Part shown: piece after piece, positions 30,759-43,404 of the stretch
How the letters are laid out: each line of letters begins with the position of its first letter
How positions within the stretch are numbered: the first letter of the stretch is position 1
Source: Escherichia phage PSa2
Sequence record: OL770310
Strand: one strand, 5' to 3'
Length of the DNA stretch: 64,000 nucleotides
Position numbers and translations under genes: made by a program
Notes under the pieces: generated by a model
Databases searched by the model: none
What the model was told of the DNA's origin: nothing
Seen by the model: the letters and a program-made list of their open reading frames with translations, nothing else

Positions 30759-30959
30759 TTATTCTTCAGGAACCGTGGCTATTGGATCTGGTTCTTCTAG
30801 ACGTTTACCATTATGATCGACACGAATAATGCCACAACCTTCACAGATTACAACAGCACCATAGCCTTCTTTAACTTCGGCTTCTGTAATCAGACCAGAT
30901 AAATCACCAGTATCTTTGCCCCACATATCAATAGAGCATTCTTTGCAGAAATCAGCCAT
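30759..30959 (-). CDS. zinc-ribbon-like small protein (CxxC...CxxC)
   Basis: 66-aa ORF. Confidence 0.4.
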   Translation of the reverse strand: MADFCKECSIDMWGKDTGDLSGLITEAEVKEGYGAVVICEGCGIIRVDHNGKRLEEPDPIATVPEE

Positions 30960-30983
30960 ATTTTATTTCCTATTTAAGTTAAT

Positions 30984-31058
30984 TGGTGCATCCTCAGGGA
31001 ATCGAACCCCGATCGTAAAGTTCGTAGCTTTACATTCTTTCCGTTGAAATAAGGACGC
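30984..31058 (-). tRNA. tRNA-Arg (ACG)
   Basis: hand-folded: anticodon arm UAAAG-CUACGAA-CUUUA. Confidence 0.6.
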
Positions 31059-31064
31059 AATATT

Positions 31065-31141
31065 TGGGGTGGCTAGTGGAATTCGAATCCACATAGGCCT
31101 GATTCACAATCAGGATCATTAACCAATTATGATATAGCCAC
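31065..31141 (-). tRNA. tRNA-His (GUG)
   Basis: hand-folded: anticodon arm CCUGA-UUGUGAA-UCAGG, discriminator C. Confidence 0.6.
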
Positions 31142-31502
31142 AATTGAAAACTCGTAGGGTTAGCGAAACCATCCTCAAATAGTATTTTCTAGAATACTAA
31201 TCAAGTTATCTCCTATTGCACGAAGCTCAAGACGAGTACGAATTTTCAATTGTGGCGGCTCTCCGAAACTCATCACACTAACAACTAGTTGATTACACCT
31301 GGATTCTCGCCCAGGAAATTCTCTAGAAAGGTGCACCGTTACTCTTTGAGCCATTGAATATCAAGAAGCAGAAGGACTTGAACCTTCATGAGATAGACCA
31401 TTTATCTCAGCCTCGTTTTCGGGTATCTTATGAGGAGTGGATGTTCCCCTTACGCCCTTTAGGAAGCCCCGTCTACCGATTCCGGCATACTTCAAGAATT
31501 AT

Positions 31503-31706
31503 TTAAAACTTGTAACCTTCGGGAACCTTATCCTTAACACCAATATACTCAGCTTGGATGTAGTATGTTGGCACATGATCTTTAGGTAGATCTTTATTTA
31601 CATCATTAACTTCCATCAAGGCTTCGGCCTCGGTGTCAAATGGACGATACCAGATTTCACCACCCCAGCCACGTTCGCTTTCGGTATACTTAACAATGTG
31701 TTTCAT
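31503..31706 (-). CDS. hypothetical protein
   Basis: track ORF 31503-31757 trimmed to internal Met so it does not overlap the tRNA. Confidence 0.4.
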   Translation of the reverse strand: MKHIVKYTESERGWGGEIWYRPFDTEAEALMEVNDVNKDLPKDHVPTYYIQAEYIGVKDKVPEGYKF

Positions 31707-31724
31707 AAGGTTTTCCTTATTAGT

Positions 31725-31814
31725 TGGAGGAAGGTAATGGAGTCGAACCATCACCATATCGCTACAGCGGGCAGGTTTTCAAGACCTGTTACATACCACT
31801 ATGTCCTACCTTCC
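31725..31814 (-). tRNA. tRNA-Ser (UGA), long variable arm
   Basis: hand-folded: acceptor 7/7, loop CUUGAAA, ~90 nt. Confidence 0.55.
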
Positions 31815-31821
31815 AGTTGTT

Positions 31822-31914
31822 TGGCGGAAGAAGAGAGATTCGAACTCTCAAGCCTGCTTTCACAAGTCAGCCACTTTCCAAGCGGTTTTCGTCACCTAAT
31901 CGATTTGCTCTTCC
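31822..31914 (-). tRNA. type II tRNA, anticodon tentatively GGA (Ser)
   Basis: acceptor and T-arm (GAGAG-TTCGAAT-CTCTC) clear; anticodon arm assignment uncertain. Confidence 0.4.
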
Positions 31915-32088
31915 GTAGATCTTAGGATTAAATCATAAACCTCATTAGCGCATACTGGAAGTATGAGATTGTACATCTTTTGGTCGTACCTCTGACCATA
32001 TTCTATAAACACATACTCTTTAGTTAATGTATTAATAGCCAACCAGATATCAGTTACAGGAGTTTTCATCGTGATTTAATCCAATGTT

Positions 32089-32169
32089 TGGTAGGGATGG
32101 AGGGACTCGAACCCACACCCGAAGACTAGAACCTAAATCTAGCGCGTCTGCCAATTTCGCCACATCCCC
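32089..32169 (-). tRNA. tRNA-Leu (UAG)
   Basis: hand-folded: anticodon arm CUAGA-UUUAGGU-UCUAG. Confidence 0.45.
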
Positions 32170-32176
32170 ATTTTAT

Positions 32177-32395
32177 TTAGTTAGAAATAAATAATAATCC
32201 CGCAACAATGGAACCTACGCCACTGAATACCATTATCAGCATAGCTTCTAAGCTGATAAAGCGGACAGTATATGGAGCGCCCCAAGAATAATCAGTAAAG
32301 AAAGTTTTCTTTTCTTTAGCTAAATCTTTAACAATTCTAAAATAGATAGCTAGTGCTAAAGCTGCAAGAACTACAGAGGCTGCTAAGAATACCAT
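32177..32395 (-). CDS. small membrane protein
   Basis: 72-aa ORF, two hydrophobic segments. Confidence 0.4.
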   Translation of the reverse strand: MVFLAASVVLAALALAIYFRIVKDLAKEKKTFFTDYSWGAPYTVRFISLEAMLIMVFSGVGSIVAGLLFISN

Positions 32396-32415
32396 ATTAT
32401 TTCCTTAATTTGTTT

Positions 32416-32490
32416 GGTGGAGTCACTCAGAATTGAACTGAGTTCCACTGCTTGCAAGGCAGTAAGTTTAACCAAATAACCTATGACCCC
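32416..32490 (-). tRNA. tRNA-Ala (UGC)
   Basis: hand-folded: G3-U70 pair present, loop CUUGCAA. Confidence 0.55.
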
Positions 32491-32496
32491 GAATTT

Positions 32497-32570
32497 TGGT
32501 GGAGAAAGAGGGAGTTGAACCCTCGTCTTCTGCGTGCAAAGCAGATGTTCTACCATTAAACTATATCCCC
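32497..32570 (-). tRNA. tRNA, anticodon UGC by simplest fold (Ala-like, second copy)
   Basis: hand-folded: anticodon arm UCUGC-UUUGCAC-GCAGA, G3-U70; one acceptor mismatch. Confidence 0.45.
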
Positions 32571-32925
32571 AAAATCTTTAAGTTTACTAAGGCTATTAGC
32601 TCGGTGTGCGTACTGCCCTCAGACATTAGCCAGTAGAGAACAGCCGCTCTTCACAAACCCGATACACTATTCAGTTGCCGCTGAATCTAGTGGACTAATC
32701 TAGAACTTATTGCAAAGTATCCCCCGCCATTAGGGGTCTAATTGCAACTGTGCTTGTTGGCAGCCAGTCCTAGGTCGAGCTAATACCTTAGTGAACTAAA
32801 TTGATGGATATCAGACTAATTTTGCTACGGCGTTTATCCTGAGGATCTCTTTTTCGGTAGCTCTGCTAGTGTAGACGTCATACACCTGATATCTAGGCAG
32901 CTATTTTCACATCAATTTATATAAA

Positions 32926-32955
32926 TATTATAACAAGAAATTAAGCATCAAGCAA
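32926..32955 (-). promoter_or_regulatory. sigma70 early promoter
   Basis: promoter family motif. Confidence 0.5.
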
Positions 32956-33307
32956 GTACATTTTTAGCAATTTCTTGTAGTTCCTTAACGTCACTAACGA
33001 AAAGGTAGTCAGAGCTTCCAGAGTGCATACTCTGCATAACCACACCACCATCCGGTGCATCTTCTTTCAAGGTAAGTCCTAACCAGAACTCGGCAAAACT
33101 AGGTGTTACCTCACCTTGACTTGCCTTGAACACATCGCCTTCTGTGATCTCTTGACCAGTGGAGAGTCCCATGTATGGTACGTTCAGATCAATATCTTTG
33201 TAGAACTCAGCTAGATCTTGCTCGAAATCCCAACCTTTAGAGATAGCGAACTCCATTGTTACATGACCGAAATAGCCTTGAACCTTGCTTGATAATTGCA
33301 TTTGCAA
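32948..33307 (-). CDS. hypothetical protein
   Basis: 119-aa ORF. Confidence 0.5.
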   Translation of the reverse strand: MQMQLSSKVQGYFGHVTMEFAISKGWDFEQDLAEFYKDIDLNVPYMGLSTGQEITEGDVFKASQGEVTPSFAEFWLGLTLKEDAPDGGVVMQSMHSGSSDYLFVSDVKELQEIAKNVLA

Positions 33308-33326
33308 TTCCTTATTTTGAGTTAAT

Positions 33327-33400
33327 TGGTACTCGGTGATAGAATCGAACTATCGCAACCGCCGTGTAAAGACGGGGTTCTCCCATTAAACTAACCGAGC
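33327..33400 (-). tRNA. tRNA-Val (UAC)
   Basis: hand-folded: T-arm GATAG-TTCGATT-CTATC, loop UUUACAC. Confidence 0.55.
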
Positions 33401-33404
33401 AATT

Positions 33405-33482
33405 TGGTGGATTGCCTGGGATTCGAACCCAGAACTGACGGATTAAAGGTCCGCTACTCTTATCCAGTTGAGCTAGCAATCC
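33405..33482 (-). tRNA. tRNA-Lys (UUU)
   Basis: hand-folded: acceptor 7/7, loop CCUUUAA (C at position 33). Confidence 0.5.
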
Positions 33483-33868
33483 AATTTTTCTACTAATAAT
33501 TTAAAAGCATCTAGTACAGGTACTTCAAACCATTCTCCAGATACTCTATAATCTTTAAGAAGATTATGTAATTCTTTCTCTGTACGTCTTTTATCCGACG
33601 AAAATCTGAAATGGTATAGCTTGTAGTCTCTATTAGGTGAATAAGTTTGATAACTTGTTAACCTCTCATTCACATCTATAGTCATACCTATTTTATACAT
33701 GCCTGGCCATGCTGGATTACCAATTACATATACAAAACCTTCCGTTATAGGTATTTTATGCTCCCTTTTATACTTTAAGAGATTTAAGGCTGCCATTCGA
33801 TAACAGAATCTAAACTCTGAAGTTTTTAACTTACCTTCTTTACCTGAAATTTCGTTATATTTGCTCAT
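33473..33868 (-). CDS. T5orf172 / GIY-YIG-like domain protein
   Basis: 131-aa ORF; GFVYVIGNPAWPGMYKIGMT ... GEWFE pattern. Confidence 0.55.
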   Translation of the reverse strand: MSKYNEISGKEGKLKTSEFRFCYRMAALNLLKYKREHKIPITEGFVYVIGNPAWPGMYKIGMTIDVNERLTSYQTYSPNRDYKLYHFRFSSDKRRTEKELHNLLKDYRVSGEWFEVPVLDAFKLLVEKLDC

Positions 33869-34122
33869 ATAAGCTCTTATGAGCTTATCATCTATAATGA
33901 AGTTATCAGGAAGGTTTAAGGCAGCTAAAAACTTTATTAATTAGCATAGACTTCTTTAATAGAGTAAACTTTTAAGTAAGGATGATTAATACCAAATTCC
34001 GCCATCACTTCATTTTCATCTTTACCGTAATAGGCTAATGGATACTTCTTACGATCTTTACTAGAACGTAAATCACTTACTTTTAAACGAAATAATTTCA
34101 TTTCGAAATCCTTCTATTAAAT

Positions 34123-34200
34123 TGGAAGCGGGTGCAGGAATCGAACCTACCTCTTTCTAGCTTATGAGACTAGAGATCTCTACCAGAGATCTAACCCGCA
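34123..34200 (-). tRNA. tRNA-Met (CAU)
   Basis: hand-folded: D-arm GATC/GATC, loop CUCAUAA; one acceptor mismatch. Confidence 0.5.
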
Positions 34201-34206
34201 ATTGTT

Positions 34207-34284
34207 TGGTCTCCGTGGGAGGATTTGAACCCACGACCCTATCGCCCCAAACGAAACGCTCTGGCCAAACTGAGCTACACGGAG
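34207..34284 (-). tRNA. tRNA-Pro (UGG)
   Basis: hand-folded: acceptor 7/7, loop UUUGGGG. Confidence 0.55.
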
Positions 34285-34317
34285 AATATTCTTTGTTAAC
34301 TCACTTTATAAAATATA

Positions 34318-34346
34318 TTATACAGAGAATTAAGCTAAATAGCAAC
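34318..34346 (-). promoter_or_regulatory. sigma70 early promoter
   Basis: promoter family motif. Confidence 0.5.
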
Positions 34347-34593
34347 TACATTTTTTAATAAATTTACTTATTAGGTAAGTCACCGAGCTATCAACTCATG
34401 CTAGCGAGAAAGTTTGCGAGACCTTCTTTAAGTACTAGAACACACCCGCCGATGTGTCGGACTTACTTAATAAGTAAACTTTCGTTTACTTACACCTACC
34501 TGGTCGGGAGGATTTTCAGCGACTAGAACCGGCCGGAAACTCATCGCCTTGTTTATCTAGGAGTCCGTTCTCTAGGAAGCAGAAACCTAAATT

Positions 34594-34667
34594 TGGTGCG
34601 GTCGGAGGGAATCGAACCCTCAACTTTTGGTTGGCAACCAAAAATTATACCTTTTAACTACGAACGC
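34594..34667 (-). tRNA. tRNA-Gly (GCC)
   Basis: hand-folded: anticodon arm UUUGG-UUGCCAA-CCAAA. Confidence 0.55.
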
Positions 34668-34669
34668 AT

Positions 34670-34880
34670 AATAAGTCAATCTAGGCAGGACTTGAACCTG
34701 CTATCACTTGTGCGGATTTACGAGAACCATTCTTTCACTCGAATCGAACGAGCTTCTACCCTCGGCAAGCTGGTGTCCCCTCTCCACCACGCTAGAATGA
34801 TAATTAATGCCTGCTCCTTTGAATCAAGAAGTCCACCCCGGACTTTGGGTCTTTGCAGTACATCACGCTGCTCTGATGTT
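34670..34880 (-). other. tRNA-like segment: two canonical T-arm motifs but no pairing acceptor stems found
   Basis: minus-strand GCAGG-TTCAAGT-CCTGC and GCTCG-TTCGATT-CGAGT without matching 5' acceptor strands. Confidence 0.3.
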
Positions 34881-34956
34881 TGGTACACCCACTAGGACTT
34901 GAACCTAGAACCCTCCGCTTAAGAGGCGGTAGCTCTAACCATTGAGCTATGGATGT
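34881..34956 (-). tRNA. tRNA, anticodon CUU by simplest fold (Lys-like)
   Basis: hand-folded: T-arm CTAGG-TTCAAGT-CCTAG, loop CUCUUAA. Confidence 0.45.
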
Positions 34957-35032
34957 ATTATTATGTTTTGCAGTGCTCTAAATATAGACACTTCCCACGC
35001 GGTGGTTATCTATACCAGCGTCCTGCAAAAAT

Positions 35033-35109
35033 TGGCGCGACCGATGGGATTCGAACCCACATTTTCTCCCGTGACAGGGGAGTACCATTACCAAGCCAGC
35101 CCCGATCGC
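35033..35109 (-). tRNA. tRNA-Asp (GUC)
   Basis: hand-folded: anticodon arm CUCCC-CUGUCAC-GGGAG. Confidence 0.6.
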
Positions 35110-35118
35110 ATAATTTAT

Positions 35119-35304
35119 TTACTCAGTTTTGAGTTTTTCGATAGCTTCCTCAACCTCTTTTAGAGCTTCACGACGGGCATTCTGTTGCTGCATATCTTGA
35201 ATTAATGTCAGTTTTTGGTTTTCAATTTCTTGATCCCAAACCTTAATATTATTAATCAGACTATCACGATCAGCTTCTAGTCGAGCAATTGCACGAGTTG
35301 TCAT
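35119..35304 (-). CDS. small coiled-coil protein
   Basis: 61-aa ORF. Confidence 0.4.
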   Translation of the reverse strand: MTTRAIARLEADRDSLINNIKVWDQEIENQKLTLIQDMQQQNARREALKEVEEAIEKLKTE

Positions 35305-35405
35305 ATCTATTTCCTCAGTTATTAATGAAAATGGTATCTGTGACTGAATTCAATATCAGTAATGATAGCTGGTTGGCTACCGGTTTACTTAACTCTACAC
35401 AGAAT

Positions 35406-35488
35406 ATGGCGGGCCGTGTAGGATTCGAACCTACGTTGTCTTTCGACATGGATTAACAGTCCACCGCCAAACCGCTTGGCTAACGACC
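35406..35488 (-). tRNA. tRNA with anticodon GUU (Asn) and an unusual 13-nt variable arm
   Basis: hand-folded: anticodon arm GUGGA-CUGUUAA-UCCAU; variable hairpin GTCGAAAGAC. Confidence 0.4.
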
Positions 35489-35495
35489 CTAAAAT

Positions 35496-35571
35496 TTGGA
35501 CGACCGCATGAGATTCGAACTCACATAAGGAGGTTTTGCAGGCCTCCGCCTAAGCCATTCAGCCAACGGTC
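35496..35571 (-). tRNA. tRNA, anticodon tentatively GCA (Cys), enlarged anticodon loop
   Basis: acceptor and T-arm clear; anticodon stem GGAGG/CCTCC encloses a 9-nt loop. Confidence 0.35.
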
Positions 35572-35750
35572 GAGTTATCTTGCTTTTCGAGATTAGTAAA
35601 CTCTAGATCTTTAGAATGTCCTATAGATCTAGCATAATAGCCATCTCCAGCATCATAGCCTGATTTACCACACTTACACATCTTAAACTCGCGTAAACGT
35701 GTAAATATATGTTCAGAACCACAACACTTAAATTTAACTAGCTTTTTCAT
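35559..35750 (-). CDS. Cys-rich small protein
   Basis: 63-aa ORF; 3' end overlaps tRNA, true extent uncertain. Confidence 0.35.
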   Translation of the reverse strand: MKKLVKFKCCGSEHIFTRLREFKMCKCGKSGYDAGDGYYARSIGHSKDLEFTNLEKQDNSTVG

Positions 35751-35989
35751 CCAACACGCTCCGGCAGGTCTTCCAGTTTATATTCAGTAGCCACATTAGC
35801 AGCATCTAGTAACAAACCCATATGTTTAAGAATTCTAGTGATAGCCTCGCCTTCTGCTTCTTCTACAAAGCAGCGTAGTTGCATGAAGTCAATACCACCA
35901 TCCATACCAGAGAAAATGTTAAGTAAGCGAAGCATTACCAGCTTACGTTCTTTCAATTCTTGTTCTGTCATGTTGCTTCTCCAGTTCAA
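35747..35989 (-). CDS. hypothetical protein
   Basis: 80-aa ORF. Confidence 0.45.
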   Translation of the reverse strand: MNWRSNMTEQELKERKLVMLRLLNIFSGMDGGIDFMQLRCFVEEAEGEAITRILKHMGLLLDAANVATEYKLEDLPERVG

Positions 35990-36000
35990 TTTATGAAATA

Positions 36001-36030
36001 ATTATACAGAACTTTAAGCGGTTAAGCAAC
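36001..36030 (-). promoter_or_regulatory. sigma70 early promoter
   Basis: promoter family motif. Confidence 0.55.
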
Positions 36031-36309
36031 TACATTTTTCAGAAATATGATGCCTTTCTTTTTCTTCTTATACTTCCACGTTAACGGGTTCTGTCTATTA
36101 TGAACGCTTGAGATCTTTGTCTCGTCAAAGTTCTTCAATACCATGTAATCACAGGCCAACTGTTCTAGTGGAATGTGATCTCCGTCAAAAGCGTAAACGT
36201 AAGGCTGTTGACTGGCACGATAATGATAGACTTTGTTAATTCTGCGTTTCAGTGACTTATCCGCACAGTAAATAAAGAAGTTTTCAGGATGCATCAGCAT
36301 CTCCTTCAA
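36022..36309 (-). CDS. hypothetical protein
   Basis: 95-aa ORF. Confidence 0.45.
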   Translation of the reverse strand: MKEMLMHPENFFIYCADKSLKRRINKVYHYRASQQPYVYAFDGDHIPLEQLACDYMVLKNFDETKISSVHNRQNPLTWKYKKKKKGIIFLKNVVA

Positions 36310-36311
36310 AT

Positions 36312-36386
36312 TGGTGCACCCTGTTCGAATTGAACGAACCTCTCAAGCTCTTCAGGCAAGCGCTAATCCATCTCAGCTAAAGGTGC
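36312..36386 (-). tRNA. tRNA-Phe (GAA)
   Basis: hand-folded: T-arm GTTCG-TTCAATT-CGAAC, loop CUGAAGA; weak anticodon stem. Confidence 0.45.
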
Positions 36387-36392
36387 AAATAT

Positions 36393-36470
36393 TGGCAAAC
36401 CTACTAGGACTCGAACCTAGACCGTACGGTTTTGGAGACCGACATGCTGTCCAGTAACACTCTAGGAATG
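36393..36470 (-). tRNA. tRNA-Trp (CCA) candidate
   Basis: anticodon arm UCGGU-CUCCAAA-ACCGU resembles bacterial tRNA-Trp; acceptor pairing poor, 5' end uncertain. Confidence 0.35.
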
Positions 36471-36477
36471 CAGAAAT

Positions 36478-36554
36478 TGGCGTCCTGTGCGGGGATCGAA
36501 CCCGCAAATCCTACCTTGAAAGGGTAGTGACTTTACCAGTTTGTCTAACAGGAC
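36478..36554 (-). tRNA. tRNA-Glu (UUC)
   Basis: hand-folded: acceptor 7/7, T-arm GCGGG-TTCGATC-CCCGC, loop CUUUCAA. Confidence 0.6.
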
Positions 36555-36561
36555 TTAAATT

Positions 36562-36652
36562 TGGTGTTGGATGATGGAGTCGAACCACCCGAGACCCTTC
36601 CGAGTCGGCAGATTTACAGTCTGCTTCGCTACCTCTACGATACTAATCCAAC
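36562..36652 (-). tRNA. tRNA-Tyr (GUA), long variable arm
   Basis: hand-folded: acceptor 7/7, anticodon arm GCAGA-CUGUAAA-UCUGC. Confidence 0.6.
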
Positions 36653-36777
36653 ATATTTGAATGAAAAGTAAGTCGGTTAAACTCAAGGTGGAATATTTCA
36701 GGATTTCCTGACTTTACCCATAAAAGTAACTCGCTTAGTTACTTCTCATTCAGATATGTTTTCCAAATTAGATAACT

Positions 36778-36807
36778 ATTATATCAAGTTTTGAAGGACT
36801 GAGCAAG
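36778..36807 (-). promoter_or_regulatory. sigma70 early promoter
   Basis: promoter family motif, degenerate. Confidence 0.4.
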
Positions 36808-36842
36808 TCAAATTTTAAAGAACTTGCTCAGTGCTACATCAG

Positions 36843-37118
36843 TTACTCGAAGCTAGGAGTGACACTCAGTTTGAATGGAAGCTCGAACACTTCTTCATAA
36901 TCATCATTGAGCGTAATTACACGACCTTCTAGCTTAGTCATGGTGATTTCGATATCAGCCCTTGCATCAGGAGCCATACCAGCTTCCACACATTTAGCTT
37001 TAACTTCCGGCAGAAGTTCTACATCGTAGAAATAAAGCCATTCAATCTCACCTTCCCAGCCACCCCAGGATTTACAAACAGCACTTTCAACACCAGTTGC
37101 AGTAACACGTTTTGACAT
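36843..37118 (-). CDS. hypothetical acidic protein
   Basis: 91-aa ORF. Confidence 0.5.
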   Translation of the reverse strand: MSKRVTATGVESAVCKSWGGWEGEIEWLYFYDVELLPEVKAKCVEAGMAPDARADIEITMTKLEGRVITLNDDYEEVFELPFKLSVTPSFE

Positions 37119-37148
37119 TCGTTAACTCCTTCATCAATTTATATAACT

Positions 37149-37179
37149 ATTATAACAGAAATCTTAAGTAAAAAGCAAG
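37149..37179 (-). promoter_or_regulatory. sigma70 early promoter
   Basis: promoter family motif. Confidence 0.5.
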
Positions 37180-37208
37180 TACATTTTTAAAATTTCTGCT
37201 TGGAGGAG

Positions 37209-37460
37209 TTAAACTCCTGATTCTTCAGCCAGATCAAGCCCAACCAACGTGATTGCCATAATAGCCGCGCCATGTTCTTTCTCTCCTAGCTCTTTGGCTT
37301 GAGTGAGAATATTAAGGAATTGCTTTTGAAAATCTGCAACTTCTTCTGTCATGCCTGCTTCAGCAATGATTCCTTTCAGCATAAAGCGTTGTGCCGTAAT
37401 TTCAGAATTAGCCATTTGTTTTCTCCAGTTGTTTAGAATGTAAGCCAAACTTAGGATCAT
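37209..37460 (-). CDS. hypothetical protein
   Basis: 83-aa ORF. Confidence 0.45.
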   Translation of the reverse strand: MILSLAYILNNWRKQMANSEITAQRFMLKGIIAEAGMTEEVADFQKQFLNILTQAKELGEKEHGAAIMAITLVGLDLAEESGV

Positions 37461-37566
37461 AGCGATCGTAAGTAGTACCGTTAGTTGAAGCCTTGATGCT
37501 ATGAAAACGACAGTACATAAATTTACGTAGTGCTTTCTTAATAGCTTTCATTTTATTTCCTTAATT

Positions 37567-37643
37567 TGGTAGGGGTGGTGGGATTCGAACCCACAAAACC
37601 TGAATTTTAAGTCCAGTACCTATGCCAATTCGATTACACCCCC
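37567..37643 (-). tRNA. class I tRNA with anticodon UAA by simplest fold (Leu-decoding)
   Basis: hand-folded: T-arm GTGGG-TTCGAAT-CCCAC, anticodon arm CUGGA-CUUAAAA-UUCAG, short variable loop. Confidence 0.4.
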
Positions 37644-37651
37644 ATGTAATC

Positions 37652-38005
37652 TTAGCGAATCTCTAAACCCTGGAAATATCGAGGGAATGGAGAGCCAACT
37701 TCAAAATTGATGCCCCAATTAAGTTCAACGAGTTCAGATTTATTAAGATCTAGGCCATTACCTTCAAAGATATAGCCGTAAACCGCAGGGAACATAGCTG
37801 CTAGATCTTCCATATCGGAATGAGCATTGTGTTCTTCACGGAACTGCTCAAACTCTTCAAAGAACTTTTCTAGGAAGAACTCAGGTACGATGAACGTTAC
37901 CACATCAGTAGAATCATCGGTACGATACACCGTAGCTTGGAACAAGCCAACACCTAAAAGGTTTATTGCCGGAGTAGTAAAAATATCCATCTTAGCCTCG
38001 CTCAA
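37652..38005 (-). CDS. hypothetical protein
   Basis: 117-aa ORF. Confidence 0.5.
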   Translation of the reverse strand: MSEAKMDIFTTPAINLLGVGLFQATVYRTDDSTDVVTFIVPEFFLEKFFEEFEQFREEHNAHSDMEDLAAMFPAVYGYIFEGNGLDLNKSELVELNWGINFEVGSPFPRYFQGLEIR

Positions 38006-38177
38006 TGTCTAGACAAATTGCATATTCAGGGTTGATACCAGTACCTTTACATGTAGGACATTCCCATTCTCTACAGAAAATATCCCCAGGTTCTGCATCA
38101 TCCTGCCTACCACCACCATGACAATCCTTACACCGACATTCTTCTAAGGCTTTCTTCATTTCATAGAATCTAGACAT
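37992..38177 (-). CDS. zinc-finger-like small protein
   Basis: 61-aa ORF; CRCKDCHG ... CPTCKGTG. Confidence 0.4.
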   Translation of the reverse strand: MSRFYEMKKALEECRCKDCHGGGRQDDAEPGDIFCREWECPTCKGTGINPEYAICLDIERG

Positions 38178-38194
38178 ATAGTCTCCTAGTTAAT

Positions 38195-38272
38195 TGGTGG
38201 CTCCCGGAGGATTCGAACCTACCTACCTTTCGCTTATGAGGCGACGGCTCATACCAAATGAGCTTGAGAACC
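38195..38272 (-). tRNA. tRNA, anticodon CAU (Met / fMet / Ile2 type)
   Basis: hand-folded: D-arm GCTC/GAGC, loop CUCAUAA. Confidence 0.5.
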
Positions 38273-38277
38273 AAATT

Positions 38278-38371
38278 TGGAGGAAGATGCCAGATTCGAA
38301 CTGGCACACCGTGTCTCCACAGCTACTGGCTGTTTAGCAAACAGCTCCCTTACCTTTAGGGTTAATCTTCC
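38278..38371 (-). tRNA. tRNA-Ser (GCU), long variable arm
   Basis: hand-folded: acceptor 7/7, anticodon arm GCUGU-UUGCUAA-ACAGC. Confidence 0.5.
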
Positions 38372-38386
38372 GAATTTATGAATATA

Positions 38387-38414
38387 TTATACAGAAAATT
38401 TCGGCATTAAGCAA
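38387..38414 (-). promoter_or_regulatory. sigma70 early promoter
   Basis: promoter family motif. Confidence 0.55.
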
Positions 38415-38422
38415 GTGAAATT

Positions 38423-38719
38423 TTACTGAACACTGCACTGATACACTTGTTTGATACGTGTCACTGACTTCTTAGTTGGATTGATAGAAGAACCTTGCCA
38501 CCAACGTGATTCTGAGCTGAGAACAGCACCAGGAACAGCTTGTTCTTTTGGCAGAACAATATCAAAACATTGCTCACCCATATTATCTTTAATGTGTGAC
38601 CAAATATCCAAAGTAAATCGTTCTAACTTATTACAAACCTGAACTTGACAAAGTTCCTGTTGCGGAGCAGCAAATACAGAAGTAGATACTAGAGTCAATG
38701 CAAGTACAGTGCGTTTCAT
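38423..38719 (-). CDS. secreted small protein (signal peptide)
   Basis: 98-aa ORF. Confidence 0.45.
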   Translation of the reverse strand: MKRTVLALTLVSTSVFAAPQQELCQVQVCNKLERFTLDIWSHIKDNMGEQCFDIVLPKEQAVPGAVLSSESRWWQGSSINPTKKSVTRIKQVYQCSVQ

Positions 38720-38749
38720 GTTTGATTCCTCTCTCGAATTTATAAATAT

Positions 38750-38778
38750 ATTATACAGAAATTTTCTATATTAAGCAA
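38750..38778 (-). promoter_or_regulatory. sigma70 early promoter
   Basis: promoter family motif. Confidence 0.55.
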
Positions 38779-38795
38779 GTGAAAATTTCTGTATA

Positions 38796-38818
38796 ATAGC
38801 CCTCTAAGCGAGGGCTAT
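38796..38818 (-). terminator. hairpin ATAGCCCTC-TAAGC-GAGGGCTAT downstream of pnuC-like gene
   Basis: 9-bp inverted repeat. Confidence 0.45.
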
Positions 38819-38825
38819 AACTACT

Positions 38826-39518
38826 TTATTTGTTAACGCGTACAAAGTATCCTTTATAAGCTCCAAGAATAGAGTTGCCTAAGAATACTAGCCACATTGC
38901 TAGGATTGCGTAAGATGCACCTGTAGATTGAGCAGTTACAAGCCAAATATATACAGTACCAATATTAATAGCAATCCAGATCAGCCACTGCTCGGCGTAC
39001 TGCTTAACCATAAGCCACATAGCGATCACACTACCTACCGCAGTAAATGCATCCAACATTGGGAATGGATCAGCCGTAGTAGCTAAGAAACTACCATACC
39101 CTAACGTGGCTACTGCTAGAATCCCTAGAGTTAGCAAAGCTTGGGCTTTAGTCAGAATCTTAGTTGGAACATCCGGCAGATTACTTGGCTTATTTTTATG
39201 CCATAAGTACATTCCATAAAACTGCATAGGAACGTAGTATAGCAGGTTTAGTGCAGCGTTACCATAAAGATCTGCGTTTAAAGCTGTAATACCATATGTA
39301 AGAACACCCACTAAGCCCCAAATATAGTTGGAAACACGTCCTTTTGCAACCAGAATAACACAAACCACATTGGTTATTGCAGTAGCCCAATCTAGAGCTG
39401 TACCATTATAGTTTGCTAAACTAATAAAGGCGACTGCTATAAACAGCCACAGATATTCCAGAGGTTTCCAGTTTTTAAAGTCATTTACGAGATAGTTAGT
39501 CATATTAAAACTCTCCAA
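38826..39518 (-). CDS. pnuC: nicotinamide riboside transporter PnuC-like
   Basis: 230-aa polytopic membrane ORF with PnuC-like pattern. Confidence 0.65.
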   Translation of the reverse strand: MESFNMTNYLVNDFKNWKPLEYLWLFIAVAFISLANYNGTALDWATAITNVVCVILVAKGRVSNYIWGLVGVLTYGITALNADLYGNAALNLLYYVPMQFYGMYLWHKNKPSNLPDVPTKILTKAQALLTLGILAVATLGYGSFLATTADPFPMLDAFTAVGSVIAMWLMVKQYAEQWLIWIAINIGTVYIWLVTAQSTGASYAILAMWLVFLGNSILGAYKGYFVRVNK

Positions 39519-40578
39519 CGTTAAAGTGATGAATCAGCCAGTCTACTGCGTTTACTGCTTCGTCCATACGAACTTTGTAGTCCGGAGAGTCGATGTAAAC
39601 AGTACGCCCTTCAGGGAACTGATTTGGAAATTCTTTCTTCATCTGCTCGAACAGTTCAGAAGTAATTGAACGATCGGAGTTAATACGTAAACCATCATCT
39701 ACCCACTTGACAGTAGGCGCTAGAACAATTACTAAATCGTAATGTTCTTCTTTTGCAATTGCTGTAACCACAGGGTTCTTACTATGTTCATAAAGTCTGT
39801 GGTAGAACTCAGTAATAAAAGCATTTGTATCCACAAACATGATCTTATTTGCAGTACGTTCTGCTTCAAACTCTAGCTCTTTGTGTCTGAACGCAATTTT
39901 ACTATAGTCTTCGCTGGTAAGCAGATTTTCGTTACCAACTAGATCAACTTCACAATACGTTCGGCCATATTCTTCTACCCACGAAGTGTTGTATAGCTTC
40001 GCAAGGTATTTTGTTAAAGTAGTCTTTCCTGAGCTTTCAGTCCCAATGATTACAACCTTACGCACGTAATCTTTACGAACTACGCTAGGAAGAAACTCCC
40101 AATACTTCATAAGATCATTACGAATCATTGTAGCTGAGACTGGAACACGAGTCCGATCAGAATCTACAATATAATGACCAAACTTCGGCAGATATTTCTT
40201 ATATTCTGCATCATAGTCTAGTTCGCTAGAGAAAATGGTGATCTCAGGCAAATGTCCGTAATTTTCATTAAGGATTCTAGCATATTCCGGCCAACCATTC
40301 GGATATTCAGGAATATCATCTTCAATAATGTACTCTACCGAAATGTGCTCAATATCCGCGTAAGTTTGTTCTAACCAACGAAGTCGATTCTTTAACTGTA
40401 ATACTTCCTGATCACGTGTGTTCTGCTTATCCAGCCAACGATTATCATGACTAACTACAATAATAACTCGTTCACACATAGTTGCTGCTGTGTTTATTAG
40501 GTTAATATGACCACGCGTTAATGGCGCGAACTTACCAATTACTAGACCAGTCTTAATCATATTTGATTCCTCTCTCAA
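39505..40578 (-). CDS. nadR: NadR-like bifunctional NMN adenylyltransferase / ribosylnicotinamide kinase
   Basis: 357-aa ORF; N-terminal GKFAPLTRGH motif, C-terminal Walker A GTESSGKTT. Confidence 0.65.
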   Translation of the reverse strand: MREESNMIKTGLVIGKFAPLTRGHINLINTAATMCERVIIVVSHDNRWLDKQNTRDQEVLQLKNRLRWLEQTYADIEHISVEYIIEDDIPEYPNGWPEYARILNENYGHLPEITIFSSELDYDAEYKKYLPKFGHYIVDSDRTRVPVSATMIRNDLMKYWEFLPSVVRKDYVRKVVIIGTESSGKTTLTKYLAKLYNTSWVEEYGRTYCEVDLVGNENLLTSEDYSKIAFRHKELEFEAERTANKIMFVDTNAFITEFYHRLYEHSKNPVVTAIAKEEHYDLVIVLAPTVKWVDDGLRINSDRSITSELFEQMKKEFPNQFPEGRTVYIDSPDYKVRMDEAVNAVDWLIHHFNVGEF

Positions 40579-40590
40579 ATTTATAAATAT

Positions 40591-40619
40591 ATTATACAGA
40601 TAATTTAGCGTTCAAGCAA
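40591..40619 (-). promoter_or_regulatory. sigma70 early promoter
   Basis: promoter family motif. Confidence 0.55.
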
Positions 40620-40776
40620 TCGAATTTTTAAACTTTTTAGTGGAAAAATCTCAAGGCATTTAGTGGTAGCACGTTGTTGCTACAATAATAGTATATGATT
40701 CTAAAGAATTAAAGAATTAAATACTAAAGACCTTAGTTGAATAACTTATGGGCTTTTCTTTTGCCTTAAATACAGA

Positions 40777-40808
40777 AAAGCCCGCGCTCTCGGAGGAAAC
40801 GCGGGCTT
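40777..40808 (-). terminator. hairpin AAAGCCCGCG-N13-CGCGGGCTT
   Basis: GC-rich inverted repeat downstream of SPFH gene. Confidence 0.5.
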
Positions 40809-40831
40809 GGTTCGAAGATTACGTGTAACTA

Positions 40832-41776
40832 TTACTTGTTACGCATATCCATGATCATTTGACCATCGTAGCCAGTACCAACAACAGTCTGCGGTACACC
40901 ACCTTGGTATTTTTCAGCACGAAGCATTTCAACTTCCAGCTGCTTCCAACGAATCATTTCAGGAGTAATGGTACGTTGCAGAGCGGCGTTAGCTTCAGCC
41001 TCTTTCTTAGCTGCGTACAGTTTAGCATCTGCGTCACGTTCGTTAGCTACTGCCATGTTTTCACGAGCGGAACGATCTGCCTCAGCTTGCTTAACTTTCT
41101 GCTGTGCTTCTTGTTCAACACGAGCCAGTTCAGCTTTTGCAGCGTTAACTTGTTCTTCACGAACTTTGGTGTTCTGTACCTGTTCCATGATTACCGGTGG
41201 CAGAGTAATATCCTGAAGGAATACTTGCTTAACGGTGTAACCATAAGGACGCGCATACTCTTCTACTTCTTGCTGAATAGCGGTTTGCAGTTGAGCCTGA
41301 ATCTTAGCGTCGAACAGATCTTGTGCTTTTGGTACAGACTTACCAAACTCACGAATCGTAGATAGCATCTTCTCTTCAACGTACTTGTTCAGAGCTTGAT
41401 CCTGAGTACCTGCGTTAACACGGTTCATAGGAGCTTTAGCTCCATCAAACTGCAACATAACGGTAATGTCAACAGTAGACTTAAACTTATCCTGGCTAGG
41501 AACCTGAAGTTTATCCAGTTTCATAGAAATATCTTTCGTACTAAAAGTATCAAAAGAAGCAAATGGGTTAACAATATGGAAGCCTGGCAATACAGGATTA
41601 GGGCTAACTTTACCCAGGAAAGTTTGGGTCTTAACAGTACCATCCTGAACAACTGTATAGGAATTGAGAGCCAGAATAAGAGCACCAAGACCAACAGCAG
41701 CACCAACACCCCAACGTTTAATAGTACGAATTACTTTTTGCTCAGAAGTCAGTTCTTTAGTGTTTTTAGTAAACAT
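40832..41776 (-). CDS. SPFH/band-7 (prohibitin/HflC-like) domain membrane protein
   Basis: 314-aa ORF; N-terminal TM, SPFH-like core, Ala/Glu/Gln-rich coiled coil. Confidence 0.55.
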   Translation of the reverse strand: MFTKNTKELTSEQKVIRTIKRWGVGAAVGLGALILALNSYTVVQDGTVKTQTFLGKVSPNPVLPGFHIVNPFASFDTFSTKDISMKLDKLQVPSQDKFKSTVDITVMLQFDGAKAPMNRVNAGTQDQALNKYVEEKMLSTIREFGKSVPKAQDLFDAKIQAQLQTAIQQEVEEYARPYGYTVKQVFLQDITLPPVIMEQVQNTKVREEQVNAAKAELARVEQEAQQKVKQAEADRSARENMAVANERDADAKLYAAKKEAEANAALQRTITPEMIRWKQLEVEMLRAEKYQGGVPQTVVGTGYDGQMIMDMRNK

Positions 41777-41787
41777 ATATTTCCTTA

Positions 41788-41988
41788 TTATTTAGAAGAG
41801 TTAGCTACTACAGTTACTTTAGTTGCAGAAATAAACAGGCTAGCATCCACAGCAAATTCAGGAGCTTTGATATCTCCATTATGAAATATGACTATACCGG
41901 AGACTACTTCAAATGCTAGTGCTGTAACATCGGTGGTATTTACTTGTGAATGTTCACCTACTACTTTTACTATATATCGTGTTTTCAC
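41788..41988 (-). CDS. hypothetical protein
   Basis: 66-aa ORF. Confidence 0.4.
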   Translation of the reverse strand: MKTRYIVKVVGEHSQVNTTDVTALAFEVVSGIVIFHNGDIKAPEFAVDASLFISATKVTVVANSSK

Positions 41989-42014
41989 TTTATTTTCCTA
42001 GCAGTTAATAAAAT

Positions 42015-42089
42015 TGGCCGAGGTGACAGGATTCGAACCTGCATAAAGGAATTTAGAAGACTCCTGCCTATCCCTTAGACTACACCCCG
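42015..42089 (-). tRNA. tRNA-Arg (UCU)
   Basis: hand-folded: D-arm GUCU/AGGC, anticodon arm GGAGU-CUUCUAA-AUUCC. Confidence 0.55.
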
Positions 42090-42099: not shown

Positions 42100-42900
42100 T
42101 TTAAGAACTCTCGTAAAAGTCCTTAAAGATACCCGACGGTAGGTAGGGTCAGCCCCCTCAGATTAAGCTCTGCAGCCCTTCCGTCAGACAATATCTTCCA
42201 GTTTAAGTCAAGGTGACTTTGTGGTTATGTTCTCCGTATGTGAAGAACTCGGTTAGGCTTAGGTCATGACTCCCAGCCTACTGCTGCCGCTCAACAGGAA
42301 TTATCGCGAATTACCTGTACTATTGGGCACCATTAGTGACATCTCTCATGTCAGCGTTTCCCACTCTCATATTCACGCGGTCTGTTAGAATCGCACCTCC
42401 GATTTTCGATGCGAAGCTGGATGCCTAGTCTCAGGTTAAACGGGGTACACACTAGGCAGTGATCCCGAGTTCCGAGTTTGGTTGAGGCCGTCAGGTTTCC
42501 TCGTGGTTTAGCTGTTTCGATTCTAACCTAATACTGATCAGGCGGCGTACCTCCTGAACCGTCATAGTATGTACTCCAGCAGCGAATGCTTATCCGGTAT
42601 AAGCCCGAGTTATCCGATTCTTTCCAGAAGGAGCAGTGAAGCTCAATGTCAGCCTGTGAGCATCTGGCAGTGTTATCACATAAGTCAGTTCGACACCCCA
42701 CTAACATAAACTAGAGAAGAGTTTACGAGATTTCGGGACAGCTCCCGAGTTTTCCACAGATTTTCAGTTCCCTATCAATAGCAATAAGCGTTAGCTCGTA
42801 GCCTCTCTCAGAGTACTTACTAGTCTCCAACTCACCGACTCTATTCAGTGGAATAGCTATCCTACTAGGAATCACTAAACTCACTCAGCGTAATCGGCTC
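42100..42900 (-). other. ORF-free, GC-richer 0.8-kb transcribed leader (candidate structured RNA)
   Basis: no ORF of 60 aa or more on either strand; between promoter at 42914-42942 and tRNA-Arg. Confidence 0.35.
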
Positions 42901-42913
42901 GCTGTTCTCTAAT

Positions 42914-42942
42914 TTATGAATCTATTATACAGAATTTTAAAG
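42914..42942 (-). promoter_or_regulatory. sigma70 early promoter
   Basis: promoter family motif. Confidence 0.55.
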
Positions 42943-42960
42943 CATTTAGCAAATCAATTT

Positions 42961-43404
42961 TTAATTAAATTCGCCAGCAACCTGAGCAGCAATGCCACCG
43001 TCGTAACGACCAGGAAACTCTTCCTTAATCGCTTTCATCAGCATACCCTTTGTAATCCCAGGATTCAGCTTAACTAATTCTGCGAAGTATTTGCGAATCT
43101 CAGAATCAGATAGCTGAGGAGGCAAATACTGCTGTAACCATTTGTTCAGTATATATTCATACTGAGCAGACTGCAAGCTATAATTATCAAGGTCTTGACC
43201 GTGAAGTTTAGCTTTTGTCTGATTAATGCTTTTCAGTTGAGCTTTTAGATAAGATACAAACTGTTCAGAAGTAATGAAGTCTTTATCAACACGCTGAAGA
43301 TCTCCGATTATGGTTTGGTAGCTTTTAGCTACTTCTTTATCAGAACCATCAACCTTAGATTCCTGCAAAGCCCTACGCAAAACATCTAGAATATTCTCTT
43401 CCAT
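42961..43404 (-). CDS. GatB/YqeY-domain-like protein
   Basis: 147-aa ORF; C-terminal pattern resembles YqeY family. Confidence 0.45.
   Translation of the reverse strand: MEENILDVLRRALQESKVDGSDKEVAKSYQTIIGDLQRVDKDFITSEQFVSYLKAQLKSINQTKAKLHGQDLDNYSLQSAQYEYILNKWLQQYLPPQLSDSEIRKYFAELVKLNPGITKGMLMKAIKEEFPGRYDGGIAAQVAGEFN

What the first reader, a model, noticed from the sequence alone, without database searches (positions are those of the whole stretch)
38826..40578. NAD salvage module: PnuC-like transporter plus NadR-like adenylyltransferase/kinase
A PnuC-like membrane transporter and a NadR-like protein with both an NMNAT motif (GKFAPLTRGH) and a kinase P-loop (GTESSGKTT) overlap at their junction and sit under the early promoter at 40591-40619. 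Together they could import nicotinamide riboside and rebuild NAD during infection, which would counter NAD-depleting abortive-infection systems. An SPFH-domain membrane protein of unknown role lies immediately upstream.
Basis: partly seen in the sequence, partly recalled or inferred. Interest (0 to 1): 0.5.

Follow-up and report, generated by a model that had tools for sequence, protein, structure and literature searches.

The report
Known phage NAD-rebuilding operon (NARP3)

Summary
On the minus strand there is a NadR-like gene (40560..39505, 351 aa) followed one base later by a PnuC-like gene (39503..38826, 225 aa). A T5-type early promoter sits upstream at 40619..40591. An SPFH gene lies further upstream, behind a strong terminator. 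The reported overlap is an artefact of using the longest ORFs, which start at TTG. The real ATG starts give TAA-t-ATG with no overlap.

The window is an Epseptimavirus (EPS7-like, T5 family). The two proteins differ from Bas30_86 and Bas30_87 of Escherichia phage TrudiRoth by 2 and 3 conservative residues. Every residue mutated in that study is conserved here.

That pair was named NARP3 (Sci Adv, Aug 2026; PDB 9X6H/9X6F). It was shown to import nicotinamide riboside, convert it NR→NMN→NAD+, and rescue T7 and lambda from Sir2-HerA and DSR1. A 2024 preprint had already proposed the idea.

About 200 phage records carry the same operon. It is therefore already known, and interest is low.

What this analysis adds:
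- The native promoter is of the early class.
- The operon sits as exchangeable cargo behind a repeated T5 P15a-type promoter and leader cassette.
- It is under strong purifying selection (dN/dS 0.03–0.10).

Its role in a native phage remains untested.

The parts
40586..40619 (-). T5-type sigma-70 early promoter: -35 TTGCTT (40619-40614), 17-nt spacer, -10 TATAAT (40596-40591), and the early-class discriminator ATATT (40590-40586)
   Evidence: Read directly from the sequence. The motif TTGCT-N18-TATAAT occurs 22 times against 0.06 expected. With the ATATT discriminator added there are 7 copies against 0 expected. The sequence is nearly identical to the annotated T5 promoter P15a. The ATATT discriminator is reported as the hallmark of T5 early promoters (PMC7472727).
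40561..40585 (-). 5' leader with the Shine-Dalgarno sequence GAGAGAGG (40576-40569), 8 nt before the ATG. The mechanical TTG start at 40578 lies inside this leader.
   Evidence: The leader is part of a 73-nt promoter-plus-leader cassette repeated at 38352-38424, 38716-38788, 40557-40629 and 42890-42962.
39505..40560 (-). NadR-like bifunctional enzyme of 351 aa: NMN adenylyltransferase domain (about residues 1-166, TRGH motif 15-18, VSATMIR 140-146), ribosylnicotinamide kinase domain (about 167-351, Walker A 173-181, Walker B D244), and no HTH domain
   Evidence: The protein differs from Bas30_86 (PDB 9X6H/9X6F) only by I34V and V141I. The NF005988 match starts at profile position 59 of 411, which shows the HTH is absent. 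dN/dS is about 0.05.
38826..39503 (-). PnuC-like nicotinamide riboside transporter of 225 aa with about 7-8 hydrophobic helices. Its Shine-Dalgarno GGAGAG (39516-39511) lies inside the end of nadR.
   Evidence: It matches the N. mucosa PnuC structure 4QTN at E=1.2e-32. It differs from Bas30_87 by three conservative substitutions (A25V, I116V, L213M), and N45, Q94 and N180 are conserved. Hydropathy is. dN/dS is 0.03-0.10.
38796..38818 (-). 9-bp GC-rich hairpin (UAGCCCUC-GCUUA-GAGGGCUA) immediately after the pnuC stop. It is a likely operon terminator or RNA-stabilising element, with a weak U tail.
   Evidence: Folding gives dG -18 kcal/mol with z=-6.1 against shuffles.
40778..40808 (-). Intrinsic terminator (12-bp stem plus U-run) ending the upstream SPFH transcription unit. 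It insulates the operon from SPFH.
   Evidence: It is homologous to the terminator region downstream of T5.080 in T5.
40832..41776 (-). Neighbouring gene, not part of the system: an SPFH/Band-7 membrane protein of 314 aa with one N-terminal TM helix, the homologue of T5.080
   Evidence: (phrog_200). It is present in T5 without the operon.
38423..38719 (-). Neighbouring gene, not part of the system: a 98-aa secreted, four-cysteine protein of unknown function. It has its own copy of the same promoter and leader cassette (38745-38778).
   Evidence: (phrog_6894). It is absent next to the operon in phage phiR2-01.

Best explanation
This is a copy of the phage NAD+ reconstitution pathway NARP3, carried in an EPS7-like (Epseptimavirus, T5-family) phage genome.

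Proposed mechanism: soon after the second-step DNA transfer, host sigma-70 RNA polymerase fires the T5-class early promoter at 40619-40586. It produces a bicistronic nadR-like/pnuC-like mRNA bounded by an upstream terminator and a downstream hairpin. The PnuC-like protein inserts in the inner membrane and facilitates entry of external nicotinamide riboside (NR). The HTH-less NadR-like enzyme traps NR by phosphorylating it to NMN with ATP in its C-terminal kinase domain. Its N-terminal domain then adenylates NMN to NAD+. This keeps the NAD+/NADH pool up when host NADase defences (Sir2-HerA, DSR1 and similar) try to collapse it. It also supplies the phage's own NAD-dependent enzymes.

Shown here: gene identity, domain content, motif and residue conservation, operon structure, promoter class and purifying selection.
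Shown by others for proteins 99% identical to these: NR binding, the two enzymatic steps, the NAD+-bound crystal structure, and rescue of heterologous phages.
Inferred: early timing, and the role in this phage's own infection.
For: Family assignment rests.

Near-identity to characterised proteins:
- PDB 9X6F/9X6H match at E=3e-241.
- There are 2 and 3 conservative differences from Bas30_86 and Bas30_87, and every mutated residue is conserved: K10, F11, S37, E80, P84, G89, F110, S112, D115, V139, E230 and D275 in NadR, and N45, Q94 and N180 in PnuC.

Published biochemistry and phage rescue (PMC13464706):
- NR binds the transporter with Kd 0.66 uM.
- HPLC shows NR->NMN->NAD+.
- Plaquing on Sir2-HerA strains is restored 10^3- to 10^4-fold only when both genes are present.
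- Rescue depends on NR, with EC50 of 3.6-5.6 uM.

The early-class promoter is supported. Purifying selection (dN/dS 0.03-0.10) across Epseptimavirus lineages with dS of about 1 is. The operon GC content equals the genome GC content. The operon is conserved as a unit while its neighbours vary.
Against: - No experiment exists in a native T5-like phage. The authors of the NARP3 paper say so themselves.
- NARP3 needs external NR and does not recycle the products of NADases (ADPR plus nicotinamide), so its benefit depends on the environment.
- E. coli and Salmonella already have PnuC and NadR, so the advantage of the phage copies must lie in dosage, timing or lack of regulation, which is inferred and not shown.
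- Roughly half of T5-like phages, including T5 itself, lack the operon, so it is dispensable.
- Early timing is inferred from promoter sequence only.
Confidence: 0.9

Rival explanations
1. The operon is mainly a general metabolic booster (an auxiliary metabolic gene) and not primarily an anti-defence device. On this view it raises NAD+ supply for the phage's own NAD-consuming enzymes, such as the NAD-dependent DNA ligase and the Sir2-like protein, and for the redox demand of nucleotide synthesis during a large burst. Any defence evasion would be a side benefit.
For: - The closely related TrudiRoth genome encodes NAD-dependent DNA ligase subunits A and B and a Sir2-like protein.
- The window encodes a Sir2-like gene plus aerobic and anaerobic ribonucleotide reductases, DHFR and thymidylate synthase homologues by synteny.
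- PHROGs files both proteins under 'moron, auxiliary metabolic gene and host takeover'.
- NadR homologues occur in 791 phage records of very different types, including ICP1, jumbo phages and Enterococcus and Lactobacillus phages.
- The native phage has not been tested against defences.
Against: - T5 and about half of its relatives have the same ligase and Sir2-like genes but no operon, so the operon is not needed for those enzymes.
- Heterologous expression rescues unrelated phages specifically from NADase defences, and the operon carries little host cost.
- The two roles are not mutually exclusive.
Confidence: 0.25
2. The PnuC-like protein transports a different substrate. The Pnu family also includes thiamine, riboflavin and deoxynucleoside carriers. 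Alternatively, the NadR-like protein might act only as an NMN adenylyltransferase. In either case the pair would not form an NR-to-NAD pathway.
For: - The Pnu family is functionally diverse; this comes from established knowledge and was not tested here.
- TIGR01526 (nadR_NMN_Atrans) scores 271 bits, below its cutoff of 341.
- The first His of the HxGH motif is Thr here (TRGH).
Against: - The PnuC equivalog model TIGR01528 scores well above its cutoff.
- NR binding, and its loss in the N45A, Q94A and N180A mutants, was measured for a protein differing at 3 conservative positions.
- Both enzymatic steps were shown by HPLC.
- Walker A, Walker B and the kinase-site residues E230 and D275 are conserved.
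- T/HxGH is the accepted variant range of the nucleotidyltransferase motif (established knowledge).
Confidence: 0.03
3. The genes are decaying, non-functional passengers in a hyperplastic tRNA region.
For: - The region is highly variable between relatives.
- Another NAD-related gene in the window, the Sir2-like gene, carries a frameshift.
Against: - Both reading frames are intact.
- dN/dS is 0.03-0.10 at dS of about 1.
- The promoter, Shine-Dalgarno sequences and terminator are all intact.
- The operon is retained in about 200 records.
Confidence: 0.02

Closest known systems
NARP3 of Escherichia phage TrudiRoth (Bas30_86/Bas30_87; Yan et al., Sci Adv 2026, PMC13464706; PDB 9X6H, 9X6F)
   Same: It has the same two genes in the same order and spacing, with the same promoter region. 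DNA identity over the operon is 98.0%. Protein identities are 99.4% and 98.7%. All functionally tested residues are identical. The genus is the same, Epseptimavirus.
   Different: There are only five conservative amino-acid differences (I34V and V141I in NadR; A25V, I116V and L213M in PnuC). One NAD-contacting position is Val here where Bas30_86 has Ile (I141). The window comes from an EPS7-like or Salmonella-phage-like genome rather than TrudiRoth. Elsewhere the genomes differ; for example, the Sir2-like allele is different.
NARP1 (Adps + Namat) and NARP2 (Nampt + NMNAT) phage NAD+ reconstitution pathways (Osterman et al. 2024, preprint 10.1101/2024.02.11.579819)
   Same: They follow the same strategy: rebuild NAD+ instead of inhibiting the defence protein, using a two-gene operon.
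   Different: The substrates and enzymes differ. NARP1 recycles ADPR plus nicotinamide, and NARP2 uses nicotinamide plus PRPP. This system imports external NR and includes a membrane transporter.
Bacterial NadR and PnuC (H. influenzae NadR 1LW7, E. coli NadR 8X7F, N. mucosa PnuC 4QTN)
   Same: The NMNAT and RNK domains and motifs match (E=6e-55 and 7.5e-51). The PnuC fold and motifs match, including PxQFxG, the WxxW..N segment and the SNY motif (E=1.2e-32). The salvage chemistry is the same.
   Different: There is no N-terminal HTH repressor domain. The two genes are fused into one early-promoter operon, whereas E. coli keeps pnuC and nadR at separate loci. [quoted passage not shown] The motif is TRGH rather than HTGH.
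Vibrio phage KVP40 NadV/NatV NAD salvage
   Same: It is a phage-encoded NAD salvage pathway ending in an NMNAT step.
   Different: NatV pairs NMNAT with a Nudix domain instead of the RNK domain. It starts from nicotinamide via Nampt and has no transporter.
PeSL mobile promoter-terminator cassettes of T4-type phages (Arbiol et al. 2010, PMC2839356; Comeau et al. 2014, PMC4122927)
   Same: The architecture is analogous. A stem-loop followed by a conserved early promoter is repeated in a hyperplastic region and flanks cargo that is present or absent between close relatives.
   Different: The phage family and the cassette sequence are different. No recombination intermediates were examined here. 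Only the titles and the opening lines of the abstracts of the PeSL papers were seen, so the comparison is by analogy and is not a membership claim.

Membership tests
NARP3 (phage PnuC-like + NadR-like NAD+ reconstitution operon) | Adjacent, co-oriented nadR-like then pnuC-like genes forming one transcription unit | tested here: met
   The genes lie at 40560..39505 and 39503..38826 with a TAA-t-ATG junction. There is a single promoter upstream and a hairpin downstream.
NARP3 (phage PnuC-like + NadR-like NAD+ reconstitution operon) | NadR-like enzyme with NMNAT and RNK domains but no HTH domain | tested here: met
   Pfam finds CTP_transf_like plus AAA_28. The NF005988 match covers profile positions 59-407 of 411. 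The protein aligns end to end with PDB 9X6F.
NARP3 (phage PnuC-like + NadR-like NAD+ reconstitution operon) | Conservation of residues shown by mutagenesis to be required (NadR K10, F11, S37, E80, P84, G89, F110, S112, D115, V139, I141, E230, D275; PnuC N45, Q94, N180) | tested here: met
   All are identical except I141, which is Val here, a conservative change.
NARP3 (phage PnuC-like + NadR-like NAD+ reconstitution operon) | NR import and NR->NMN->NAD+ catalysis | not testable with these tools
   These activities were shown for the 99%-identical TrudiRoth proteins by MST, ITC, HPLC and a crystal structure. They were not measured for this sequence.
NARP3 (phage PnuC-like + NadR-like NAD+ reconstitution operon) | Restores NAD+ and phage growth against NADase defences (Sir2-HerA, DSR1) | not testable with these tools
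   This was shown heterologously with T7, lambda and Klebsiella phages. It was explicitly not tested in a native NARP3 phage.
Bacterial trifunctional NadR | N-terminal HTH DNA-binding (repressor) domain | tested here: not met
   The protein starts at the NMNAT motif (G9-H18). The match to NF005988 begins at profile position 59. No HTH family appears in Pfam.
Bacterial trifunctional NadR | NMNAT signature (T/H)xGH and the SxTxxR motif | tested here: met
   T15-R16-G17-H18 and V139-S140-A141... 'VSATMIR' align with the H. influenzae NadR 'HTGH' and 'VSATKIR' motifs.
Bacterial trifunctional NadR | RNK Walker A and Walker B motifs | tested here: met
   G173-TESSGKT-T181 aligns with GGESSGKS, and 'FVDTN' (D244) aligns with 'FIDTD'.
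Bacterial trifunctional NadR | Curated NCBIfam cutoffs | tested here: inconclusive
   NF005988 scores 255.7, above its cutoff of 201. TIGR01526 scores 271.4, below its cutoff of 341.15.
PnuC nicotinamide riboside transporter (PF04973 / TIGR01528) | Profile scores above the curated cutoffs | tested here: met
   PF04973 scores 147.7 against 27.3. TIGR01528 scores 119.8 against 42.45. The enterobacterial subfamily model NF011926 is not met (67.7 against 335), so this is not the host-type PnuC.
PnuC nicotinamide riboside transporter (PF04973 / TIGR01528) | Polytopic membrane protein with conserved substrate-site motifs | tested here: met
   There are 7-8 hydrophobic segments. The alignment to 4QTN keeps 'SNY', 'PxQFxG' (Q94) and 'EQWxxWIxxNI' (N180).
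T5 early-class sigma-70 promoter | -35 TTGCT(T/A), 17-nt spacer, TATAAT and the ATATT discriminator | tested here: met
   The element spans 40619-40586. It aligns with the annotated T5 promoters P15a, P15b and P13a. The discriminator criterion comes from PMC7472727.
T5 early-class sigma-70 promoter | Transcript accumulates in the early period of infection | not testable with these tools
   No expression data are available for this phage.

The most novel reading that the evidence does not exclude
In its native T5-like genome, NARP3 may be a plug-in cargo behind a mobile early promoter and leader cassette of the T5 P15a type, gained and lost by recombination between the repeated cassettes in a way analogous to the PeSL cassettes of T4-type phages. 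Its native benefit may also owe as much to feeding the phage's own NAD-dependent ligase as to defeating NADase defences. Neither point is addressed in the NARP3 paper, which mentions no native promoter and no T5-like context.
Probability: 0.35. Interest if true: 0.3.

Novelty: already known. Interest (0 to 1): 0.12.

Why it matters
The system matters as biology. It is a third way for phages to rebuild NAD+ and escape NAD-depleting abortive-infection systems, and it is a candidate module for engineering therapeutic phages. That value has already been realised in print for a nearly identical operon.

This window adds three small things:
- A natural variant with five conservative substitutions.
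- Evidence that the native operon is driven by an early-class T5 promoter.
- Evidence that it behaves as an exchangeable module in the tRNA region.

One real gap remains, acknowledged by the authors of the NARP3 paper. Nobody has deleted the operon in a native T5-like phage and tested that phage on defence-carrying hosts. EPS7-like Salmonella phages such as this one are widely available and would allow that test.

Tried and rejected
- **Functional link to the SPFH gene.** I rejected it. A terminator separates the two. T5 has SPFH without the operon. GSW6 has the operon without an adjacent SPFH gene.
- **98-aa downstream gene as a third operon member.** I rejected it. It has its own promoter cassette and is missing in phiR2-01.
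- **Overlapping or translationally fused genes.** This is an artefact of the mechanical TTG starts.
- **Generic promoter scan.** It missed the real promoter because TTGCTT matches only 3 of 6 positions of TTGACA. A family-specific pattern found it.
- **Guessed TrudiRoth accession (MZ501080).** The guess was wrong and returned phage JeanPiccard. The correct record, MZ501109, was found by search.
- **Literature search for 'NARP3'.** It returned only unrelated papers.
- **Conserved, possibly programmed, frameshift in the Sir2-like gene.** Records labelled 'Sir2 (x2)' suggested this at first. Th1 and GSW6 turned out to have intact genes, with the second label belonging to a neighbouring gene.
- **Searches not run.** I did not run the large protein-database, structure-prediction or metagenome searches, because a solved structure of a 99%-identical protein and a dedicated paper already answer the question.
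Full report
**What is there**

The window is a T5-family phage genome segment.
- The 3.4 kb around the finding is 97.5-98.3% identical to many Epseptimavirus records, including EPS7, JN-S202001, SP_Thor and vaffelhjerte.
- It sits inside a cluster of 29 minus-strand tRNA genes.

The mechanical ORF list shows a 357-aa ORF at 40578..39505 and a 230-aa ORF at 39518..38826 on the minus strand, both starting at TTG. The sequence itself shows better starts.
- GAGAGAGG lies 8 nt before the ATG at 40560.
- GGAGAG lies 7 nt before the ATG at 39503.
- These ATG starts are used in every GenBank annotation I looked at.
- They are also the starts of the crystallised construct, which is His6 plus 351 residues.

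The genes are therefore 40560..39505 (351 aa) and 39503..38826 (225 aa). They are joined as TAA-t-ATG. They are tightly coupled but do not overlap.

**Identity of the proteins**

The downstream protein is a PnuC-family transporter.
- It matches Pfam NMN_transporter at E=4.5e-43 and the PnuC equivalog TIGR01528 at 119.8 bits against a cutoff of 42.45.
- It matches the N. mucosa PnuC structure 4QTN at E=1.2e-32, with the SNY, PxQFxG and WxxWIxxNI segments conserved.
- It has 7-8 hydrophobic helices.

The upstream protein is a NadR-like bifunctional enzyme.
- It has a cytidylyltransferase-like NMNAT domain and an AAA_28 kinase domain.
- It passes the NadR model NF005988 at 255.7 bits against a cutoff of 201. 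The match starts only at profile position 59, so the HTH repressor domain is absent.
- The second NMNAT motif (VSATMIR) and the Walker B motif (FVDTN) align with H. influenzae NadR 1LW7.

**It is the published NARP3 system**

The PDB search returned entries 9X6F and 9X6H at E=3e-241. [quoted passage not shown]

That paper studies Bas30_86 (NadR-like) and Bas30_87 (PnuC-like) of Escherichia phage TrudiRoth. I fetched the TrudiRoth locus and compared it with the window.
- The operon is 98.0% identical at the DNA level.
- The NadR-like proteins differ by I34V and V141I.
- The PnuC-like proteins differ by A25V, I116V and L213M.
- Every residue the paper mutated or listed as a ligand contact is identical, except position 141, which is Val here and Ile in Bas30_86.

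The paper reports the following.
- Bas30_87 is a trimer that binds NR with Kd of about 0.66 uM.
- Bas30_86 carries out NR->NMN->NAD+ with ATP, shown by HPLC.
- There are apo and NAD+-bound crystal structures.
- Co-expressing both genes, but neither alone, restores NAD+/NADH and raises T7 and lambda plaquing 10^3- to 10^4-fold on Sir2-HerA strains. It also counteracts DSR1.
- Rescue depends on NR, with EC50 of 3.6-5.6 uM.

Osterman et al. had already written in their 2024 preprint that phage NadR plus PnuC operons, BASEL phages included, probably form a further NAD+ reconstitution pathway. PHROGs has long-standing families for both proteins.

**Distribution and selection**
- The operon is covered at 80% or more in 202 phage records, mostly Salmonella and Escherichia T5-like phages.
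- NadR-like homologues occur in 791 phage records of many kinds.
- About 400-450 T5-like records share the flanking genes, so roughly half carry the operon.
- T5 itself has no operon at this locus.
- Against the divergent Epseptimavirus copies in phiR2-01 and GSW6 (dS of about 1), dN/dS is 0.05 for nadR and 0.03-0.10 for pnuC, and the key residues are retained.
- The operon GC content (0.393) equals that of the window (0.396), so it is not a recent foreign acquisition.

**Native regulation, which the NARP3 paper does not cover**

- The pattern TTGCT-N18-TATAAT occurs 22 times in the window against 0.06 expected. Of these, 21 lie on the minus strand in front of genes or tRNAs.
- Seven copies have the exact ATATT discriminator. 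Klimuk et al. report this discriminator as common to all known T5 early promoters (PMC7472727).
- The 75 nt upstream of nadR align almost base for base with the annotated T5 promoter P15a.
- A strong terminator at 40808-40778 ends the SPFH unit upstream.
- A 9-bp GC hairpin at 38818-38796 (dG -18 kcal/mol, z=-6.1) follows pnuC.
- The next gene has its own copy of the same promoter and leader, with 2 mismatches in 42 nt.

Early expression is thus well supported by sequence, but it has not been measured.

**Modular context**

Homology between the window and T5 breaks exactly at the nadR start codon: window 40557 corresponds to the end of the T5 P15a cassette. Behind that cassette T5 carries T5.076. 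T5 also has three plus-strand genes between P15a and the SPFH homologue T5.080.

Other relatives differ again.
- Vaffelhjerte has the operon plus a 510-nt gene, placed like T5.076, between the 98-aa gene and tRNA-Ser.
- phiR2-01 has the operon but not the 98-aa gene.
- GSW6 has the operon with no SPFH gene beside it.

The 73-nt promoter and leader cassette occurs four times within 4.6 kb. This resembles the PeSL promoter-terminator cassettes that flank shuffled genes in T4-type phages (PMC2839356 and PMC4122927). I offer this as an analogy and did not test any mechanism. It also argues against a functional link between SPFH and the operon.

**Rivals**

The main alternative is a general metabolic-booster role. 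It is supported by the phage family's NAD-dependent ligase and Sir2-like genes. It cannot be excluded, because no native deletion has been tested. However, T5 has those genes without the operon, and the two roles are compatible. The published assays on the 99%-identical proteins and the selection data effectively exclude a different transport substrate or gene decay.

**Verdict**

Novelty is 'already known', and interest is low. The useful remaining question is a deletion test in a native T5-like phage.

Noticed in passing
window 58877-59691 (+), frameshift at about 59021-59027: The phage Sir2-like gene (Pfam SIR2, E=1.8e-14) is split into ORFs of 71 aa and 216 aa by loss of one T from a run of five (AATTTTTAC becomes AATTTTAC). 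EPS7 shares the same lesion and annotates two CDSs there, and 117 records are at least 99% identical to this allele. T5, Th1, GSW6, AKM_HA2021_32 and phiR2-01 are intact. A -1 slip on TTT would restore a 271-aa protein that is 82% identical to T5.102. This could be a recent pseudogene, a split gene or a slippage site, and that is unresolved. It is of interest because it is another NAD-using gene in a NARP3 phage.
   Followed up: partly
window 38352-38424, 38716-38788, 40557-40629, 42890-42962 (-): A 73-nt T5 P15a-type cassette carrying an early promoter, leader and Shine-Dalgarno sequence is repeated four times in 4.6 kb. Each copy sits in front of different cargo. Homology to T5 ends exactly at the cargo start codon, and relatives differ by whole promoter-plus-cargo units. 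This looks like the PeSL-type modular shuffling described for T4-type phages.
   Followed up: partly
window 40784-40789, inside the terminator hairpin 40778-40808: On the minus strand the sequence reads GA|GCGC. This matches the T5 nick consensus and aligns with the position annotated in T5 as a 'major DNA single-chain interruption'. This phage may therefore carry the same site-specific nick within the terminator between SPFH and nadR.
   Followed up: partly
window 29209-42089 (-): There are 29 tRNA genes, all on the minus strand. They include three tRNA-Met(CAT)-type genes, a tandem tRNA-Ala(TGC) pair and both tRNA-Gln isoacceptors. They are interspersed with many small ORFs and early promoters.
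   Followed up: no
window 38423-38719 (-): This is a 98-aa protein with an N-terminal signal-like hydrophobic segment and four cysteines (phrog_6894, function unknown). It is expressed from a near-exact copy of the nadR promoter and leader. The RefSeq label 'lipoprotein' in this neighbourhood appears to belong to the SPFH gene, which matches phrog_200 ('lipoprotein'), not to this ORF.
   Followed up: partly
window about 54000-56300: The cumulative GC skew reaches its minimum here, and the coding strand switches from minus (up to 55903) to plus (from 56247). The divergently transcribed genes are a PhoH-like gene and the anaerobic ribonucleotide reductase, assigned by synteny with TrudiRoth.
   Followed up: no
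window 59971-60510 (+) and 6304-7299 (+): One ORF carries a HAD_SAK_2 domain ('Swiss Army Knife RNA repair' HAD, E=4.6e-19) just downstream of the Sir2-like gene. A 331-aa ORF matches DUF7566 over its full length (E=6.9e-135).
   Followed up: no
public records matched by window 38780-40640: Records named 'Campylobacter phage A148' (MG065642) and some 'Listeria phage' records are about 98% identical to this enterobacterial T5-like operon. Their host labels are probably wrong or reflect contamination.
   Followed up: no
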